Below, in pieces: positions 28,092 to 53,963 of a DNA stretch of 64,000 nucleotides. The position numbers and the translations under genes were made by a program. Each line of letters opens with the position of its first letter. The first letter of the stretch is position 1. This stretch comes from Acidimicrobiia bacterium. GTDB taxonomy: Bacteria; Actinomycetota; Acidimicrobiia; Spongiisociales; ZC4RG35. Location: NCBI GenBank assembly GCA_035250485.1, contig DATFFB010000214.1, positions 8,197-72,196 on the forward strand, in the 5' to 3' direction. The notes beneath the pieces are model-generated. The model was not told the DNA's origin. It saw nothing but the letters and a program-made list of their open reading frames with translations, and ran no database searches.

Positions 28092-29290
28092 GAGTGGTCC
28101 TGGCCTACTCGGGCGGACTCGACACATCTGTGATTCTGGCCTGGCTGATCGAAGAGAAGGGCGCGGAGGTCGTTTGCTACACGGCCGACGTTGGCCAGGG
28201 AGAGGAGTCCGAGGTCGCCCGCCAAAAGGCGCTCGCCACCGGAGCGGTCGAGGCGGTGGTGGAAGATCTGCGTGAAGAGTTCGTGCGCGATGCCGTTTTC
28301 CCGGCCCTCCGGGCAAGCGCGGTGTACGAGTGGTACTACTTGCTTGGCACCTCCCTCGCCCGCCCGATCATCACTCGGGGGTTGATGAGGACCGTCAAGG
28401 CCACGGGGGCGGATGCGATTGCCCACGGGGCAACCGGGAAAGGAAACGACCAGGTTCGCTTCGAGCTCTCCGCCTTCGCCCTGGACCCCGACATCCGGAT
28501 CATAGCCCCTTGGCGGGAGTGGAAGCTGCGGGGTCGGGCCGACCTGGTCTCCTACGCCGCCGCCCGGGGGATTCCCGTGCCGGTCACCGCCGAGAAGCCC
28601 TATTCGATCGACGCCAATCTCCTCCACATATCTTACGAAGGGGGAGTGCTCGAGGATCCCTGGGTGAGTCCGCCCGCACAGATGTTCCGGCTCACCACCG
28701 ACCCCGAAGAAGCGCCGGACGAATCCGAAGTCGTCACCGTTGCCTTCGAGGCCGGCAATCCGGTGGCGATCGACGGTCGCAAGCTGAGCCCGGTGGAACT
28801 CCTCACCGAGGCCAATCGCCTGGCCGGGCGCAATGGCGTAGGACGAGTGGACATCGTCGAGAACCGGTTCGTCGGCATCAAGAGCCGGGGCGTGTATGAA
28901 ACTCCTGGCGGCACTCTTCTCCATCACGCTCACCGGGCGGTGGAGTCGATCACCCTCGACCGCGAGGTCGCCCATCTTCGCGACGAGCTCGTTCCCCGGT
29001 ACGCCGAGATGGTCTACAACGGCTTCTGGTTCTCGCCCGAACGCCGGGCTCTCCAGGCGTTTATGGACGAGGTGCAAAAGCGGGTCAACGGCGAGGCGCG
29101 GTTGCGCCTCTACAAGGGAAACGTCATCGTTGAAGGTCGGCGATCGGAGAAATACGACCTCTACGACCAGGCCACGGCCACTTTTGAAGAGGATGATGTC
29201 TACGACCAGGCCGACGCCGCCGGGTTCATTCGCTTGAACGCTCTCCGCCTTCGGCGTCTCGGCGAGGAGCGCCTCGGGGAGGGCGAGTGA
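28088..29290 (+). CDS. argG: Argininosuccinate synthase
   Basis: [11 protein letters not shown]-loop and conserved core, 400 aa. Confidence 0.96.
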
Positions 29291-30600
29291 CCCTTTGGGG
29301 CGGCCGCTTCTCTTCGACGCCCAATCAGGAAATGTGGGATTTCACCGTCGATCATGCCGATCGACGGTTGCTCTCCTTTGACATCGAGGGTTCGGCTGCC
29401 CATGTCGAGATGCTGACCAAGGTCGGGCTGCTCGACGCTGACGAAGGAGCGGAGCTGGGGAAAGGGCTGCAGGCAATCGCCGAAGAGGCCACCGCCGGTT
29501 CCTTCCAGTTCTTCGACACCGATGAGGATGTCCACACCGCGGTCGAGCGCCGACTCATTGAGCTGGTGGGCGAGGTCGGTGGCAAGTTGCACACTGGACG
29601 CTCCCGCAACGACCAGATCGCCCTCGACCTCCGCCTTTATCTACGGTCCGCGGTTGGTGCTCGCCGCCACGATCTTGCCGCCGTTATCTCCGTGCTGGCA
29701 GACCAGGCTGCACGACACCGCGAGACAGCCGTAGCCACCTATACCCACCTCCAGCAGGCCCAGCGCTCGACTCTGGGGCATCAGTTGCTGGCTCACGCCT
29801 GGGCAATACGTCGCGACCACGAGCGCCTGGCTGATCTCGAGAAGAGGCTTTTGGTATCACCGCTCGGCGCCGGCGCCTCGGCAGGGTCATCCCTTCCGCT
29901 CGATCCCGCCCAGACAGCCGCCCGGCTCGGGTTTGCCACCGTCTTTGAGAACTCGCTCGACGCGGTTTCGAGCCGTGACCTCGTATCCGAGTTTGGCTTT
30001 GTCGCCACTCAGGCGATGGTCCACTTTTCCCGTCTGGCCGAAGAGCTCGTGCTCTGGTCCTCGCTCGAGTTCGGCTGGGTGCAGCTCGCCGACGAGTTCA
30101 CGACCGGCTCGTCGGCTTTGCCGCAGAAGAAGAATCCGGATGTGGCCGAGCTGGTGCGGGGGCGCGCCGCGGGTGCGATTGGCCAGCTGACCGGATTGCT
30201 TGCATTGCAGAAGGGCCTTCCGCTCTCCTACAACCGAGATCTCCAAGAGGACAAGCCGGCGCTCTTCTGGCTCGACGATACGTTGGGGGCAAGCAGCCGA
30301 GCTCTTGCCCGGCTAATCGCTACCGCTACTTTCGACCCGCCCCCACCCTCGGTTTGGACCGACGCCCTCGGCATCGCCGAGAATCTCGTCCGCCGAGGGA
30401 TTGCCTTCCGCGCTGCTCACGAGATGGTGGGAAAACTCGTCGCTCGTCTGCTGGCGGACGGACACAATCTCGCCGATGTCGATCCCGGCGACCTCGCTGC
30501 CACCGGCTTGCAGCCCTCCGATCTCGAGGTGGTCCGCTCTCACGCAGGACTCTCCATCGACGAGCAGATCGCCCGCCTCCGCCAATCCGTTCTTGCGTAG
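29287..30600 (+). CDS. argH: Argininosuccinate lyase
   Basis: Fumarate-lyase signature (…[12 protein letters not shown]…), 437 aa. Confidence 0.96.
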
Positions 30601-30637
30601 ATTTCGCCGCAAAAACCGGTCCATTTCTACGCAAGAA
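30589..30637. repeat. Palindromic element copy 1 (TTCTTGCGTAGA … TCTACGCAAGAA, 12-13 bp perfect arms, 25-bp spacer)
   Basis: The left arm contains the argH TAG stop and the right arm ends at the azlC ATG. The same arms recur at 47368-47419. Confidence 0.6.
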
Positions 30638-31311
30638 TGATTGAGTCCTCTTATCGGCGGGGGTTTCGCGACACCCTGCCACTGATTCCCCCGCTAATTG
30701 TCTTCGGCTTGGTCTACGGGGCACTCGCCGCTCAGGTGGGATTCAGCCCGCTTGTCACCGGACTGTCATCGCTCTTGATCGTCTCCGGGTCCGCCCAGCT
30801 GGCAATGGTGGGCTTGATTCCCTTCGGCGCCGGCCCGGTGCTGGTGGCCACGACCGGGCTGGCCTTGCGACATATACCGATGGGGATTCATCTTTCCGAT
30901 CTCATCGGGCCGGTGTCACCCTGGCAACGCTTTCACCTGTCGTGGATCCTGGTCGACGAGTCTTATGGATTGACGGTGACCGCGGCCGAAAAGGGAGTTC
31001 CCGATCTCGCCGCCTACAAGACCGCAGCCGACTTCACCCTGTTTCCCTCGTGGGTGGTGACCACCGTGATCGGCGCCGTTCTCGGGGCACAGCTCGATCC
31101 CAGCCGATACGGCCTCGATGCCGTCATTCCCTTGGTTTTTCTGGGGTTGGCGGCGGCGATTATTCGGGGCTGGCGACGCTGGCTTGCGGCGGCGTTGGCG
31201 GTTGGCACCACGTTCCTGGCGGTGGCCTTTCTTCCCCCCGCCTGGCAGTTGACCTCGGCTGCTTTTCTGGCGGCAGCGCTGGCCGCGGCATGGCCGGGCG
31301 TTGCGGAATGA
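30637..31311 (+). CDS. azlC: AzlC-family branched-chain amino acid exporter subunit
   Basis: Polytopic membrane protein with AzlC-family topology, 224 aa. Confidence 0.85.
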   Translation: MIESSYRRGFRDTLPLIPPLIVFGLVYGALAAQVGFSPLVTGLSSLLIVSGSAQLAMVGLIPFGAGPVLVATTGLALRHIPMGIHLSDLIGPVSPWQRFHLSWILVDESYGLTVTAAEKGVPDLAAYKTAADFTLFPSWVVTTVIGAVLGAQLDPSRYGLDAVIPLVFLGLAAAIIRGWRRWLAAALAVGTTFLAVAFLPPAWQLTSAAFLAAALAAAWPGVAE

Positions 31312-31598
31312 CTTATCTCCCTCTGATCCTGGCAGTCGCGGTCATCACCTTCAGCTCCCGGTACTTCTCCTTCGCCCACCGATCCATCAGGTTGGGGCGG
31401 TTTCTCGACGTGTTCGCGGTGGCCCTCTTCGTTGCCATCGGAAGTCAGGGCCTGATCGGGGGCGGCGGCGATACCACCCCTCCCAACGTGGCCGCGTTTG
31501 TCGGAGCCGTCGCCGGCGGTTTGCTGTTTCGTCGCTCGATGCTCGGCGTCGTCATCACCGGTCTCGGGTTCTACTGGGGGGCTCGTCTCCTGCTCTAG
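31308..31598 (+). CDS. azlD: AzlD-family branched-chain amino acid transport protein
   Basis: 96-aa hydrophobic protein. ATG overlaps the azlC stop (ATGA); the AzlC/AzlD pair is typical. Confidence 0.75.
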   Translation: MTYLPLILAVAVITFSSRYFSFAHRSIRLGRFLDVFAVALFVAIGSQGLIGGGGDTTPPNVAAFVGAVAGGLLFRRSMLGVVITGLGFYWGARLLL

Positions 31599-37954: not shown

Positions 37955-38045
37955 CAAGAAAGACAAAAGACAAAAGACGAAAGACTTCAGATATCAGACA
38001 TCAGAGTGGGAGAAAGGAGTGGCCGCCCGGTAGGGGGCGGCCACT
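37955..38045. repeat. Dispersed AT-rich heptamer-repeat element, copy C (most complete: both heptamer types plus hairpin)
   Basis: aagaaagacaaaagacaaaagacgaaagac + ttcagatatcagacatcagag + hairpin gtggccgcccggtagggggcggccac. Lies in the divergent region between the histidine phosphatase gene and pyrE. Confidence 0.6.
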
Positions 38046-38130
38046 ACTGTCAGCGTCGACCACAGCGGGAGGAGAAACCGACTGTGCGTCGACCTATTAC
38101 ATCGACCGGCGACGCCGAAAAGTTGAGCGC

Positions 38131-45698: not shown

Positions 45699-45737
45699 GA
45701 AAAGCGGCCCCGTCGGTGTGGCGGAACCGCTTTTCGG
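45699..45737 (+). terminator. Rho-independent terminator after dnaB
   Basis: gAAAAGCGGccccgtcggtgtggcggaaCCGCTTTTcgg: GC stem flanked by an A-tract and a T-tract, about 15 nt after the dnaB stop. Confidence 0.6.
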
Positions 45738-47273: not shown

Positions 47274-47275
47274 TG

Positions 47276-47346
47276 AGCGGATGAGGGGAATCGAACCCCC
47301 ACTTCAGGCTTGGGAAGCCCGTGTTCTGCCGTTGAACTACATCCGC
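47276..47346 (-). tRNA. tRNA-Gly (anticodon CCC); CCA not encoded
   Basis: Hand-folded: acceptor stem GCGGATG/CATCCGC, D-arm GTTC-AACGGCA-GAAC, anticodon stem CGGGC/GCCTG with loop TTCCCAA, T-arm GGGGG-TTCGATT-CCCCT. Coordinates +/- 1. Confidence 0.85.
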
Positions 47347-47367: not shown

Positions 47368-47419
47368 CCATTCTTGCGTAGAAATGGGCACATTTATGCG
47401 GCCATTTCTACGCAAGAAG
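47368..47419. repeat. Palindromic element copy 2 (CCATTCTTGCGTAGAAATGG … CCATTTCTACGCAAGAAG, 17 bp arms, 14-bp spacer)
   Basis: Same arm sequence as 30589-30637. Lies 22 bp from the 5' end of tRNA-Gly and at the 3' end of a small minus-strand membrane ORF. Confidence 0.6.
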
Positions 47420-47632
47420 CGAGCTCACCCCCCAAATCGTCATCAGGAGGCCCACGACGAGGAGAAATCGCACCCGGCCGGGCCGATAGGAGCCGGACAC
47501 CCCGGCCGGAGTCTCGCCGGCTCGATGCTTGCGCCACGCCAGGAGGTTGCCCACGATCAAGGCCAGACCCAACCCGGTGACCATCTCGGCCACCAGGCTG
47601 TCGAGTCCGAGAATGTCTCTCACCGTTCGCAA
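47408..47632 (-). CDS. Small hypothetical membrane protein (2 TM helices)
   Basis: 74 aa, TTG start; the hydrophobic helices look protein-like, but it competes with an overlapping plus-strand ORF. The palindromic element sits at its 3' end. Confidence 0.4.
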   Translation of the reverse strand: MRTVRDILGLDSLVAEMVTGLGLALIVGNLLAWRKHRAGETPAGVSGSYRPGRVRFLLVVGLLMTIWGVSSLLA

Positions 47633-47663
47633 TTGAACCGCAACGGCCTGGTAAAACCAACCC

Positions 47664-48443
47664 GTGCCCCGTCACTGCTACGTCCTCCGGGTATTCACCC
47701 GCCAAGGCGAGGGGGGCAATTCCCTGGGCGTGGTGACCGACGTCCTCGGACTTGACGACGACAAGATGCAGCGCATCGCTACGGAACTCGGATTCTCGGA
47801 GACGATCTTTCTCCGCTGGTTCGACGAGCCCCGGCCTCACGCCCGGATCTTCACCCCCACCAGCGAGCTTCCCTTTGCAGGACACCCGCTGGTCGGGGCT
47901 GCCTGGCTCTTGCTGAATCTCGGACCTCAAGATCCGGGGGCGATCGAGTGCTCCGTCGGCACGGTTGACATCTCGGCGAGCGGCGACACCACCTGGATCA
48001 GGGCCGCAGGCGGTCAACCGGTGAGCGAGGTGGAGGCCCGGCTCGGTGCCTGGGTGAATCCGAAGGAGACGGTGGTGGTGGAGATGCCACTCCGCTATTT
48101 GCTGGTCGAAGTGGAAACTCCCGCCGAGGTGAGCGCGGCTTCAGTCCCGAGTGACGTCGCCGGTTTCGACTCCATCTACCTATGGGCTTGGTCGGGCCCA
48201 GACAGAGTGAGGGCTCGGTTCTTCATCCCCGATGCCGGTATCCCCGAAGATCCCGCCACAGGGAGTGCGGCGGTGGCACTCGCTTCCTACCTACGCAGCC
48301 AGGGCAGAGCCGAGGGCGAACTCGTCATCGAGCAGGGCGCCGAGATGGGCCACCCCTCGATGATCCAACTGCGCTGGGATCCCTCCCACACCCATCTCGG
48401 TGGCGAGGTGCAAAAGGACGAGGTTCGGTTTCTCAGCATTTGA
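47664..48443 (+). CDS. PhzF-family phenazine-biosynthesis-like isomerase
   Basis: GTG start; N-terminus …VFTRQGEGGNSLGVV… and the PhzF/DapF-like fold, 259 aa. Confidence 0.85.
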   Translation: MPRHCYVLRVFTRQGEGGNSLGVVTDVLGLDDDKMQRIATELGFSETIFLRWFDEPRPHARIFTPTSELPFAGHPLVGAAWLLLNLGPQDPGAIECSVGTVDISASGDTTWIRAAGGQPVSEVEARLGAWVNPKETVVVEMPLRYLLVEVETPAEVSAASVPSDVAGFDSIYLWAWSGPDRVRARFFIPDAGIPEDPATGSAAVALASYLRSQGRAEGELVIEQGAEMGHPSMIQLRWDPSHTHLGGEVQKDEVRFLSI

Positions 48444-53837: not shown

Positions 53838-53869
53838 CGGAGAACTCTGGATCCGAGTCTGGCAAAGGC

Positions 53870-53900
53870 GAGGCCCCGGCGGAGGGGACGCCGGGGCCTC
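53870..53900 (-). terminator. Strong hairpin terminator between the small zinc-ribbon gene and the csoR operon
   Basis: GAGGCCCCGGCG-gagggga-CGCCGGGGCCTC: perfect 12-bp stem followed by tctctttct on the plus strand. Confidence 0.55.
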
Positions 53901-53963
53901 TCTTTCTAGGATTCGCAGTGTCGGGGGAGGGGGAGAGAACCTGACCCAGCGCTCCTAGAAGTC

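What the first reader, a model, noticed from the sequence alone, without database searches (positions are those of the whole stretch)
30589..30637. Palindromic element TTCTTGCGTAGAAAT/ATTTCTACGCAAGAA present twice; copy 1 spans the argH stop and azlC start
The perfect 12-13 bp inverted arms TTCTTGCGTAGA … TCTACGCAAGAA flank a 25-bp spacer. The left arm includes the argH TAG stop codon and the right arm runs into the azlC ATG. The same arm sequence, extended to 17 bp, recurs 16.7 kb away at 47368-47419. Two identical palindromes with different spacers (25 vs 14 nt) are unlikely by chance in 64 kb. They suggest a REP-like structured element or terminator/attenuator hairpin family, or possibly an operator for a dimeric regulator. 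Placement over a stop and start codon would couple argH termination to azlC initiation.
Basis: seen in the sequence. Interest (0 to 1): 0.6.

Follow-up and report, generated by a model that had tools for sequence, protein, structure and literature searches.

The report
Dispersed palindromic repeat family in Acidimicrobiia
The two palindromes are copies of an apparently undescribed family of ~48-bp hairpin-forming repeats scattered through Acidimicrobiia genomes; they were inserted at gene junctions, where they donate stop and start codons, and the same repeats always bracket one nuclease gene, much as REP elements bracket their transposase.

Summary
Both sites (30590-30637 and 47371-47418) are 48-nt palindromes with identical 12-nt outer arms. 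They are not a local arg/azl operator and not canonical terminators. They belong to a dispersed repeat family: 22 loci in five Acidimicrobiia MAGs, plus 114 metagenome stretches carrying the same arms. The family has invariant arms and a variable centre that stays self-complementary. It is mostly placed at gene 3' ends, and the arm's TAG often serves as the stop codon. Relatives with identical synteny lack the element at both window sites, and one carries a deletion remnant. So both copies are derived insertions that now encode ArgH's last residues and stop, AzlC's start, and the last residues and stop of a 74-aa membrane protein. There is no strand asymmetry, so the constraint is on the DNA palindrome, not on one transcript. 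Unexpectedly, an AbiEi-DUF559 (wHTH plus Vsr-like nuclease) gene is flanked on both sides by family palindromes in 9 of 9 loci, including 4 of 4 chosen without regard to the element. This parallels REP-RAYT units, but with a different enzyme. The in-situ function (intercistronic hairpin, translational coupling, or an outward AAGAAT -10 box) is inferred, not shown.

The parts
30590..30637 (+). Copy 1, 48-nt core palindrome (Y-X' type: the left inner arm AGATTTCG does not pair with the right inner arm CCATTTCT)
   Evidence: RNA fold -28.9 kcal/mol, z = -6.3; 74 bits
30582..30645 (+). Copy 1, extended element (CCAATCCG ... TGATTGAG) as matched by covariance model R2
30598..30600 (+). argH stop codon TAG, inside the left arm. 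The element encodes ArgH's last residues, QSVLA
   Evidence: homologues with >=79% identity end ...LA; those with <=77% do not
30637..30639 (+). azlC start codon ATG. Its A is the last base of the right arm, and the extended arm encodes AzlC residues M-I-E
   Evidence: the relative without the element starts MTTAASISSYRQG
47371..47418 (-). Copy 2, 48-nt near-perfect palindrome. Its centre is a hybrid of two perfect types (GGGCACA/TGTGCCC and GGCCGCA/TGCGGCC)
   Evidence: -32.9 kcal/mol; 78.5 bits
47363..47426 (-). Copy 2, extended element
47408..47632 (-). Conserved 74-aa membrane-protein gene whose last codons (LLA) and TAG stop (47408-47410) are supplied by the arm
   Evidence: (80% identical to the L171 orthologue, which ends ...SLIT-TGA with no element)
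47275..47346 (-). tRNA-Gly(CCC), starting 24 nt downstream of the element edge (CAAGAAT side)
29287..30600 (+). argH (argininosuccinate lyase), the upstream neighbour of copy 1
30637..31311 (+). azlC, the downstream neighbour of copy 1 (azlD follows at 31308-31598)

Best explanation
Both palindromes are copies of a lineage-specific dispersed repeat family of Acidimicrobiia and related Actinomycetota. The kind is REP/MITE-like. Each copy has a 48-bp core (about 64 bp with the extended arms): a sequence-invariant 12-bp stem foot (TTCTTGCGTAGA / TCTACGCAAGAA) and a free-to-vary but self-complementary upper stem and loop.

Shown here: they are derived insertions or replacements at gene junctions, not ancestral regulatory sites. 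They supply the TAG stop of the upstream gene (argH; the 74-aa gene), and in copy 1 they also supply the ATG and first codons of azlC.

Inferred: the variable overall length (45-50 nt) combined with invariant arms means the conserved unit is the duplex formed when the arms pair with each other, as a hairpin or cruciform. It is therefore read by a structure- and sequence-specific protein. The best candidate is an AbiEi-DUF559 fusion (winged-helix DNA-binding module plus Vsr-like PD-(D/E)xK endonuclease). Its gene is bracketed on both sides by family palindromes wherever it was examined, paralleling the REP-RAYT 'REPtron'.

Inferred in-situ consequence: any transcript crossing the element folds into a -29 to -33 kcal/mol hairpin between cistrons, acting as a 3' barrier or attenuator. 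In copy 1 the stem foot contains both the argH UAG and the A of the azlC AUG, and no Shine-Dalgarno is present. AzlC translation would then depend on ribosomes finishing argH and melting the stem.
For: Family and anatomy:
- The exact 17-mer arm hits 22 loci in five Acidimicrobiia MAGs and only scattered single sites in other phyla.
- The palindrome pattern finds 114 metagenome stretches.
- 137 copies were catalogued, of 45-50 nt (46-49 in all but two).

Covariation:
- The outer 12 pairs are invariant. The inner 10 pairs show 448 double-sided changes against 177 +/- 13 in shuffles.
- The covariation score is 0.285 against 0.02-0.04 when the partners are slid, and 90.8% of cells are paired.

Placement:
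- 153 sides face gene 3' ends and 98 face gene starts.
- 34 genes use the arm's TAG as their stop, and most other stops lie 3-15 nt away.
- Convergent gene pairs number 40 and divergent pairs 17.
- GTAG-type REPs likewise donate TAG stop codons to flanking ORFs (PMC3733652).

DNA-level symmetry:
- The sense strand folds better in 16 cases, the antisense in 21, with 9 ties. G.T versus A.C is 36 versus 29.

Derived insertion:
- ArgH homologues with >=79% identity end ...LA; those with <=77% do not.
- With identical synteny, L166 has a 13-nt empty junction, L167 and L168 have unrelated spacers, and L169 keeps CCAATCCGTTCTTG followed by a deletion.
- At site 2, L170 and L171 have tRNA-Gly-dcd without the element, and the 74-aa gene lies elsewhere and ends with its own TGA.

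Recent copying:
- Identical 48-mers occur at two non-orthologous sites in one MAG (L004:7218 and L030:2603).
- The two copies flanking the nuclease gene in L172 are identical.

Constraint:
- At orthologous sites the arms are 98% identical, against 84-87% for the flanking CDS.

Partner protein:
- All five independent DUF559 homologues in the element-selected loci lie directly beside an element.
- All four homologues chosen without regard to the element (45-61% identity) are flanked on both sides.
- The protein is a full AbiEi module plus a DUF559/MTES_1575 domain with invariant acidic, His and Lys positions.
- The gene sits at a conserved purB-purC locus across 55-100% protein identity. RAYTs are likewise single-copy, vertically inherited and fixed in position (10.1101/2021.07.10.451892).
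Against: - Mobility is not demonstrated. No unambiguous target-site duplication was seen: the flanks CG/CG or TCA/TGA are themselves palindromic.
- Copy density is low: 2 per 64 kb in the window, and roughly one strict match per 100-180 kb on long contigs. That is far below classical REPs.
- No AbiEi-DUF559 gene lies in the window or in the 22 loci of the window's own subfamily, so the link to these two copies is by family membership only.
- The flanking of that gene could simply be an autoregulatory operator plus a 3' hairpin.
- Arm conservation is partly a search artefact, because the arms were the query.
- The alignment used for covariation was fitted to the structure and counts both strands.
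- Copy 1's centre pairs poorly (Y-type left arm), so hairpin strength is not uniformly maintained.
- The presence or absence of a RAYT was never tested.
- No transcript or binding data exist.
Confidence: 0.6

Rival explanations
1. Outward-facing promoter, by analogy with Correia elements. In the window's subfamily each element edge plus the next base forms a -10 box, AAGAAT. This would drive transcription starting about 7 nt downstream, giving leaderless mRNAs, and at copy 2 the tRNA-Gly precursor. This can coexist with the repeat-family explanation.
For: - T follows CAAGAA on 25 of 28 sides facing a gene start, against 9 of 22 sides facing a gene end (p = 5e-4). After collapsing orthologous sites by eye this is still about 16 of 17 against 5 of 12.
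- On end-facing sides the base drifts freely among orthologues, giving V, I or L codons in ArgH.
- GTG or ATG lies exactly 8 nt after the element at four independent sites. This places the T at -7 relative to a leaderless start, with no room for a Shine-Dalgarno.
- At copy 2 the element has replaced the tRNA's ancestral upstream region, so the tRNA needs either a promoter in the element or co-transcription with the 74-aa gene.
- Correia MITEs carry functional outward sigma-70-like promoters (PMC10969869).
Against: - No -35 box is present, and no match passes a sigma-70 consensus scan.
- The azlC ATG overlaps the hexamer, so copy 1 cannot serve azlC this way.
- rpmE (L027) and L004:2814 have ordinary Shine-Dalgarno sequences that a +8 start would cut off or leave at the extreme 5' end.
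- The broad family has C at this position on both kinds of side.
- T may simply be the subfamily's consensus, eroded only where coding sequence overlaps it.
Confidence: 0.3
2. Host-selected RNA hairpin as the primary function: a bidirectional terminator, or a 3'-end stabiliser or processing site (for example an RNase III substrate) that separates transcription units. On this view its repeat character is incidental.
For: - The element strongly prefers gene 3' ends and convergent gene pairs.
- The predicted hairpins are very stable on both strands.
- The inner module of perfect copies looks like a bidirectional terminator (GAAAT-GGCCGCA-TTTA-TGCGGCC-ATTTC). It resembles other hairpins in the window, such as 45699-45735.
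- A perfect stem of about 22 bp is the size of an RNase III substrate (my own knowledge).
- Correia elements are cleaved by RNase III at their inverted repeats.
Against: - No U-tract follows the full stem, and the consensus scan finds none.
- There is no excess of G.U over A.C and no sense-strand folding advantage.
- An RNA function would not need 12 invariant base pairs across lineages.
- 17 copies lie between divergent genes.
- Downstream genes start 0-10 nt after the stem.
- The element is absent from syntenic relatives, which use other spacers.
Confidence: 0.3
3. Pure protein-binding sites with no mobility. On this view the palindromes are the genomic operator set of one DNA-binding protein, such as the AbiEi-DUF559 protein acting as a regulator or nucleoid factor. 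Copies would arise by point mutation or conversion and not by transposition.
For: - The arms are highly conserved at orthologous sites.
- The AbiEi module is a DNA-binding antitoxin type, and it matches AbiEi models at 1e-23 to 1e-29. That AbiEi proteins bind inverted repeats in their own promoters is my own knowledge.
- The palindrome lies 43-95 nt upstream of the nuclease gene's start.
Against: - The arm spacing varies from 45 to 50 nt, which would rotate the half-sites on B-DNA.
- The centre stays self-complementary, which a two-half-site operator does not need.
- Most copies lie at 3' ends or between convergent genes, away from promoters.
- A de novo origin for 48-bp identical copies at unrelated sites is implausible.
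Confidence: 0.12
4. A local regulatory site specific to arginine or branched-chain amino-acid genes (an ArgR- or Lrp-type operator or attenuator), which happens to be duplicated near tRNA-Gly.
For: argR lies upstream in the same cluster, and the element spans the argH-azlC junction.
Against: - The same element occurs next to dozens of unrelated genes.
- Relatives with the same argR-argG-argH-azlCD cluster lack it.
- By my recollection it does not resemble an ARG box.
Confidence: 0.02

Closest known systems
REP / REPIN elements with their RAYT transposase (REPtrons), Proteobacteria
   Same: - Short dispersed palindromes at gene ends that contain GTAG and donate TAG stop codons to flanking ORFs (PMC3733652).
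- Conserved ends with a variable middle.
- A resident gene at a fixed chromosomal position, bracketed by copies of the family it is thought to act on (10.1101/2021.07.10.451892).
- Copies within a genome resemble one another.
   Different: - The bracketed gene is an AbiEi-DUF559 (wHTH plus PD-(D/E)xK, Vsr-like) protein, not a HUH/Y1 transposase.
- GTAG is internal and present on both arms, and it is replaced by GTAA, GTGG or GTAT in sister lineages.
- Each element is a single 48-bp hairpin, not a doublet of small REPs.
- The copy number is tens per genome, not hundreds.
- The host phylum is Actinomycetota.
Correia elements (CREE/nemis) of Neisseria, and other MITEs
   Same: Inverted-repeat elements at gene junctions that can carry outward promoters at their ends. 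They fold into hairpins that RNase III processes, and they alter the expression of neighbouring genes (PMC10969869).
   Different: - Correia elements are about 100-150 bp with 26-bp inverted repeats and a TA target duplication.
- They derive from a transposon lineage.
- No target duplication, parent IS or promoter activity has been shown for the family described here.
AbiE (type IV toxin-antitoxin) AbiEi antitoxin and its operator
   Same: The bracketed protein carries a full AbiEi-like module. AbiEi proteins bind inverted repeats near their own gene (my own knowledge).
   Different: No AbiEii toxin gene is adjacent. Instead the AbiEi module is fused to a DUF559 nuclease domain, and the inverted repeat is dispersed genome-wide and not confined to one promoter.
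Sequence-conserved terminator-like hairpins of Actinobacteria (for example the M. tuberculosis 'TRIT' motif, recalled from memory)
   Same: A hairpin family at gene 3' ends of a high-GC actinobacterium, conserved in sequence and lacking a canonical U-tract.
   Different: This comparison was not tested here. There is no sequence relationship that I know of, and no Rfam family matches.

Membership tests
REP sensu stricto (RAYT-associated GTAG REP) | Short extragenic palindrome able to form a stem-loop | tested here: met
   48-nt palindromes with z-scores of -4.6 to -7.0 and 90.8% of cells paired across the family. They often overlap the last or first codons of genes, as some REPs do.
REP sensu stricto (RAYT-associated GTAG REP) | Conserved GTAG tetranucleotide at one end of the palindrome | tested here: not met
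   GTAG is present but internal (positions 8-11 of each arm) and symmetric. Sister lineages have GTAA, GTGG or GTAT instead.
REP sensu stricto (RAYT-associated GTAG REP) | High copy number (>100 per genome) | tested here: inconclusive
   2 copies per 64 kb in the window. 4-8 copies per incomplete MAG by the exact 17-mer. 1-2 strict matches on contigs of 176-360 kb. This suggests tens of copies, but no whole genome could be scanned.
REP sensu stricto (RAYT-associated GTAG REP) | Genome encodes a RAYT (HUH/Y1 transposase) flanked by the repeats | not tested
   No search for PF01797-type proteins was run. The gene found flanked by the repeats is a different protein.
REPIN-RAYT-like bipartite system (functional analogy) | A resident gene bracketed on both sides by copies of the dispersed family | tested here: met
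   9 of 9 AbiEi-DUF559 loci have an adjacent element. All 4 homologues chosen without regard to the element are flanked on both sides. This was seen in relatives, not in the window.
REPIN-RAYT-like bipartite system (functional analogy) | The gene is vertically inherited at a fixed locus | tested here: inconclusive
   The purB-[element]-gene-[element]-purC arrangement recurs in L065, L103, L172 and L173 at 55-100% protein identity. Other homologues sit at other loci (L127, L174, L175). No phylogeny was made.
REPIN-RAYT-like bipartite system (functional analogy) | The protein binds or cleaves the repeat | not testable with these tools
   This needs EMSA and nuclease assays.
MITE | Terminal inverted repeats | tested here: met
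   12-25-nt inverted arms.
MITE | Target-site duplication (direct repeats) at the ends | tested here: inconclusive
   The flanks are CG...CG in the broad family and TCA...TGA in the window's subfamily. CG is self-complementary, so a 2-bp duplication cannot be told apart from an extension of the palindrome. Copy 1 replaced about 45 nt and was not a clean insertion.
MITE | A parent IS or transposon with matching inverted repeats | not tested
   None was seen in the loci inspected.
Intrinsic (rho-independent) terminator | GC-rich stem-loop followed by a U-tract | tested here: not met
   The consensus scan finds none at either copy. The stems are followed by AAGAATGA, AAGAAGCG or AAGAACGG.
Sigma-70-type promoter | -35 and -10 hexamers at 16-18 nt spacing | tested here: not met
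   No match at either copy. Only a -10-like AAGAAT sits at the edge.
AbiE type IV toxin-antitoxin system | Bicistronic abiEi-abiEii (antitoxin plus nucleotidyltransferase toxin) | tested here: not met
   No AbiEii-like neighbour appears in the four gene tables. PADLOC matches only the AbiEi part.
Any Rfam RNA family | Match to a curated covariance model | tested here: not met
   Only tRNA passes the gathering threshold. The best match at the element has E = 8.5.

The most novel reading that the evidence does not exclude
A second, independently evolved bipartite 'domesticated nuclease plus dispersed palindrome' system exists in Actinomycetota, analogous to REPIN-RAYT. A resident AbiEi-DUF559 protein (winged-helix plus Vsr-like PD-(D/E)xK nickase) would recognise the conserved stem foot of ~48-bp hairpins and copy or homogenise them across the chromosome. 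The repeats in turn would be co-opted as portable gene-boundary modules that donate stop codons, start codons and possibly -10 boxes.
Probability: 0.35. Interest if true: 0.75.

Novelty: new variant of a known kind. Interest (0 to 1): 0.55.

Why it matters
Dispersed palindromes of the REP/REPIN type are known mainly from Proteobacteria. There they are tied to one enzyme class, the HUH/Y1 'RAYT' transposases.

This work gives a well-defined family in an uncultured actinobacterial lineage. It has filled and empty orthologous sites and strong covariation. It also has a reproducible two-sided association with a completely different protein, AbiEi-DUF559. The very abundant DUF559 'very-short-patch-repair-like' proteins of Actinobacteria have no assigned role, and this association suggests one that can be tested directly by binding and nicking assays on a 48-nt substrate.

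For genome annotation, the family explains why unrelated proteins (ArgH, PurB, a small membrane protein, and the nuclease itself) share a C-terminal ...LA-stop. It also marks sites where start codons and operon boundaries have been rewritten by a repeat.

Tried and rejected
- **Rfam.** At gathering threshold and at E <= 10, nothing matches except tRNA.
- **Literature.** A full-text search for the arm sequences returned only chance primer matches. Nothing was found for DUF559/AbiEi plus palindromes, or for palindromic repeats in Acidimicrobiia.
- **Phage contigs.** No copy was found.
- **tRNA association.** It holds only at the tRNA-Gly site and its orthologues.
- **RNA-strand test.** Sense versus antisense folding and G.U versus A.C show no asymmetry, so I dropped the idea of a strand-specific structured RNA.
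- **Canonical terminator or promoter.** Neither is detected.
- **Promoter inside the palindrome.** I tried TTGCGT as a -35 box and various -10 candidates by eye. None has workable spacing.
- **Model R1.** It was built with a structure mis-registered by two columns and was discarded. R2 was used instead.
- **Further diverged copies.** The covariance model found none in the window or in 684 kb of loci.
- **'Three independent' nuclease genes flanked by pairs.** L065, L103, L172 and L173 turned out to be one orthologous purB-purC locus. The independent support comes from L127, L104, L141, L174 and L175.
- **Resemblance to the HspR HAIR box** (CTTGAGT-N7-ACTCAAG, recalled from memory). Rejected because the spacing and the gene contexts do not fit.
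- **The two window copies as inverted repeats bounding a 16.7-kb invertible or composite segment.** No supporting evidence. Both sites are explained individually by their orthologues.
Full report
**Observation.** The 12-mer TTCTTGCGTAGA occurs four times in the window, as two inverted pairs at 30590-30637 and 47371-47418. Shuffles give 0.1 matches. Both pairs span exactly 48 nt. Copy 1 has 12-nt arms and a 24-nt centre. Copy 2 is an almost complete palindrome, with 23-nt arms that are 91% complementary. The similarity continues about 8 nt outward on each side. Either strand would fold into a hairpin of -29 to -33 kcal/mol, with z-scores of -4.6 to -7.0.

**Gene context in the window.** Copy 1 lies between argH and azlC in an argR-argG-argH-azlC-azlD cluster. 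The argH TAG is in the left arm, and the azlC ATG starts with the last base of the right arm. Copy 2 has the same layout on the minus strand. A 74-aa membrane-protein gene ends ...LLA-TAG in the arm, and tRNA-Gly(CCC) begins 24 nt beyond the other arm, followed by dcd. A covariance-model search with filters off finds no further copies in the 64 kb.

**It is a family.** The exact 17-nt arm hits 22 loci in five Acidimicrobiia MAGs. Elsewhere it gives only scattered single matches in unrelated phyla. Almost every Acidimicrobiia hit is an inverted pair of about 48 nt. A palindrome-specific pattern finds 114 more stretches in metagenomes. In all, 137 copies of 45-50 nt were catalogued, 135 of them 46-49 nt.

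**Anatomy.** Each copy has an invariant 12-bp stem foot. The upper stem and loop differ between copies and lineages but remain self-complementary. On a model-based alignment the 10 inner pairs show 448 double-sided changes against 177 +/- 13 in shuffles. The covariation score is 0.285 against 0.02-0.04 for slid partners, and 90.8% of cells are paired. Two caveats apply: the alignment was fitted to the structure, and the arms were the search key. Rfam has no matching family. The arm sequence does not appear in the searchable literature except in chance primer matches. No phage contig carries the element.

**Where the copies sit.** With a simple gene caller, 153 element sides face a gene's 3' end and 98 face a gene start. 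34 genes use the arm's TAG as their stop codon, and most other stops lie 3-15 nt away. Convergent pairs (40) outnumber divergent pairs (17), and 57 contexts are co-directional. So the family prefers gene ends, as REPs do. The published GTAG-REP survey notes the same donation of TAG stop codons (PMC3733652). The element is nevertheless not a canonical terminator. No U-tract follows the stem. Copies occur between divergent genes. In the window's subfamily, downstream genes start 0-10 nt after the stem.

**DNA or RNA?** Among 46 copies with a single transcription direction, the sense strand folds better in 16 cases, the antisense in 21, and 9 are ties. G.T and A.C mismatches are equally frequent, 36 against 29. 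An element selected as RNA should tolerate G.U but not A.C on the transcribed strand. The symmetry here points to a constraint on the DNA palindrome, or to copying of palindromic masters followed by neutral decay. The overall length varies while the arms stay invariant. This implies that the conserved unit is the duplex made when the arms pair with each other, as a hairpin or cruciform, and not two half-sites on straight DNA.

**Both window copies are derived insertions.** ArgH homologues at >=79% identity end ...(S)LLA...VLA or ...SLA. Those at <=77% identity end differently. Four relatives keep the full argR-argG-argH-azlC-azlD-EEP-M24 synteny.
- L166 has an empty junction...ELRRLV-TAG, 13 nt, then ATG for MTTAASISSYRQG.
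- L167 and L168 have 75-88 nt of unrelated spacer.
- L169 retains CCAATCCGTTCTTG and then jumps into azlC codon 9 or so. It is a deletion remnant.

So in the window's clade the element replaced the natural junction. It now encodes ArgH's QSVLA-stop and AzlC's M-I-E.

At site 2, L170 and L171 have tRNA-Gly-dcd without the element. The 74-aa gene is real: it is 80% identical in L171. There, however, it lies on the other side of phzF and ends ...SLIT-TGA. Copy 2 therefore sits at a local rearrangement. These results exclude an ancestral arg/azl operator.

**Signs of copying and constraint.** Identical 48-mers occupy two non-orthologous sites in one MAG (L004:7218 and L030:2603). The centre of window copy 2 is a hybrid of two perfect types seen elsewhere. 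At orthologous sites the arms are 98% identical, against 84-87% for the flanking coding DNA and 85% for the centre (this is partly search bias).

**A candidate partner protein.** In the metagenome loci, pairs of elements about 1 kb apart bracket a 306-319-aa protein with AbiEi_4 and DUF559/MTES_1575 domains. All five independent homologues in those loci lie directly beside an element. Because those loci had been selected for the element, I then took homologues from a protein search and fetched four on long contigs without regard to the repeat.

All four are flanked on both sides by palindromes of the family, with lineage-specific arm variants: TTCTTGCGTAAC..., TTCTTGCGTGGA..., TTCTTGCGTATC.... 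In L172 the two flanking copies are identical. In L172 and L173 the gene's own TAA stop lies in the downstream arm.

The protein is a full AbiEi-type module fused to a DUF559 endonuclease-like domain. The AbiEi part matches PADLOC models at 1e-23 to 1e-29 and gives weak hits to PDB 6y8q and 9hlo. The DUF559 part gives a weak hit to PDB 3hrl. A conserved D...E.D...H...DR.KQN core is present, and no AbiEii toxin gene is adjacent.

Four of the loci share one conserved position, purB-[element]-gene-[element]-purC, across 55-100% protein identity. This recalls the fixed, vertically inherited position of RAYTs (10.1101/2021.07.10.451892). No such gene lies in the window or in the 22 loci of its subfamily. 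The link to the two window copies is therefore by family membership only. Binding and cleavage are untested.

**What the copies do in place (inference).** Any transcript through them carries a strong intercistronic hairpin.

For copy 1, the stem foot contains the argH UAG and pairs the A of the azlC AUG, and there is no Shine-Dalgarno. Coupling of azlC translation to argH termination is therefore mechanistically plausible. Copy 1 is also a variant whose inner left arm (AGATTTCG) does not pair. This variant is shared by two other sites.

A second reading applies to the window's subfamily only. The base after CAAGAA is T on 25 of 28 start-facing sides, against 9 of 22 end-facing sides. GTG or ATG lies exactly 8 nt beyond the edge at four independent sites, with no room for a ribosome-binding site. 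This fits AAGAAT acting as an outward -10 box for leaderless mRNAs, as in Correia elements (PMC10969869). It could also explain transcription of tRNA-Gly after its ancestral upstream region was replaced. Against this reading:
- the azlC ATG overlaps the hexamer;
- two downstream genes have ordinary Shine-Dalgarno sequences;
- no -35 box exists;
- the broad family has C at that position.

**Verdict.** The element is a new family of a known kind, the dispersed palindromic repeat. Its unusual feature is a reproducible association with an AbiEi-DUF559 nuclease instead of a RAYT. That association is potentially important but is so far only an association.

Noticed in passing
L172:1411-2451; L173:1406-2463; L174:1407-2473; L175:1383-2610; L065:1307-2372; L103:4857-5922; L127:851-1904: An AbiEi(full)-DUF559/MTES_1575 fusion gene of about 305-325 aa is bracketed on both sides by palindromes of this family in every locus examined. 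The arm variants are lineage-specific, and no AbiEii toxin gene is adjacent.
   Followed up: partly
L169:3010-3040: This is a deletion remnant of the orthologue of copy 1. CCAATCCGTTCTTG is retained, and then the sequence jumps into azlC codon 9 or so. This removes the palindrome and the azlC start, and ArgH ends ...VLE-TAA.
   Followed up: partly
window 47408-48443 versus L171:111-1081: The 74-aa membrane-protein gene and phzF are in swapped order between the window's clade and a relative whose dcd is 81% identical. Copy 2 sits exactly at the new junction, so the repeat marks a rearrangement breakpoint.
   Followed up: partly
L167:2520-2575; L168:3805-3852: Relatives that lack the element share a conserved motif, GAAAATCnGCGCAATA, plus TAGACG/TAGCCG about 12-15 nt before the azlC ATG. 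This may be the native azlC promoter or leader that the element replaced.
   Followed up: no
window 30602-30609; L005, L006, L015, L017, L023 (alignment A3): The left inner arm has two forms. X (AGAAATGG) pairs with the right arm. Y (AGATTTCG) does not. Y recurs at three non-orthologous sites, always on the side away from the downstream gene.
   Followed up: no
L004:7273, L033:3563, L030:2595, L047:1726, L014:1178, L016:7331, L026:2881, L043:2156: GTG or ATG start codons lie exactly 8 nt beyond the element edge at four independent sites, with no Shine-Dalgarno. These may be leaderless genes transcribed from AAGAAT.
   Followed up: partly
L065:1307-1317; L103:5912-5922; L116:4345-4352; window 30590-30600: The paralogous lyases PurB and ArgH both end ...VLA-TAG. 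The shared C-terminus comes from the repeat's arm, not from common ancestry.
   Followed up: yes
L106:890-935 and 1882-1927: A flagellin gene of 264 aa is bracketed by two copies with AACTTGCGTAGA arms, 992 nt apart.
   Followed up: no
L131:7080-7125: One copy has an entirely A/T centre (AGGTATAATATTAATATTATCT) and TGCTTGCGTAGA arms, with A/T-rich flanks. It may come from a different lineage or be a chance match.
   Followed up: no
window 45699-45735, 53865-53905, 38012-38051: These are ordinary GC-rich hairpins with A/T-tract flanks, which look like terminators. They show that this genome also uses conventional terminators unrelated to the repeat.
   Followed up: no
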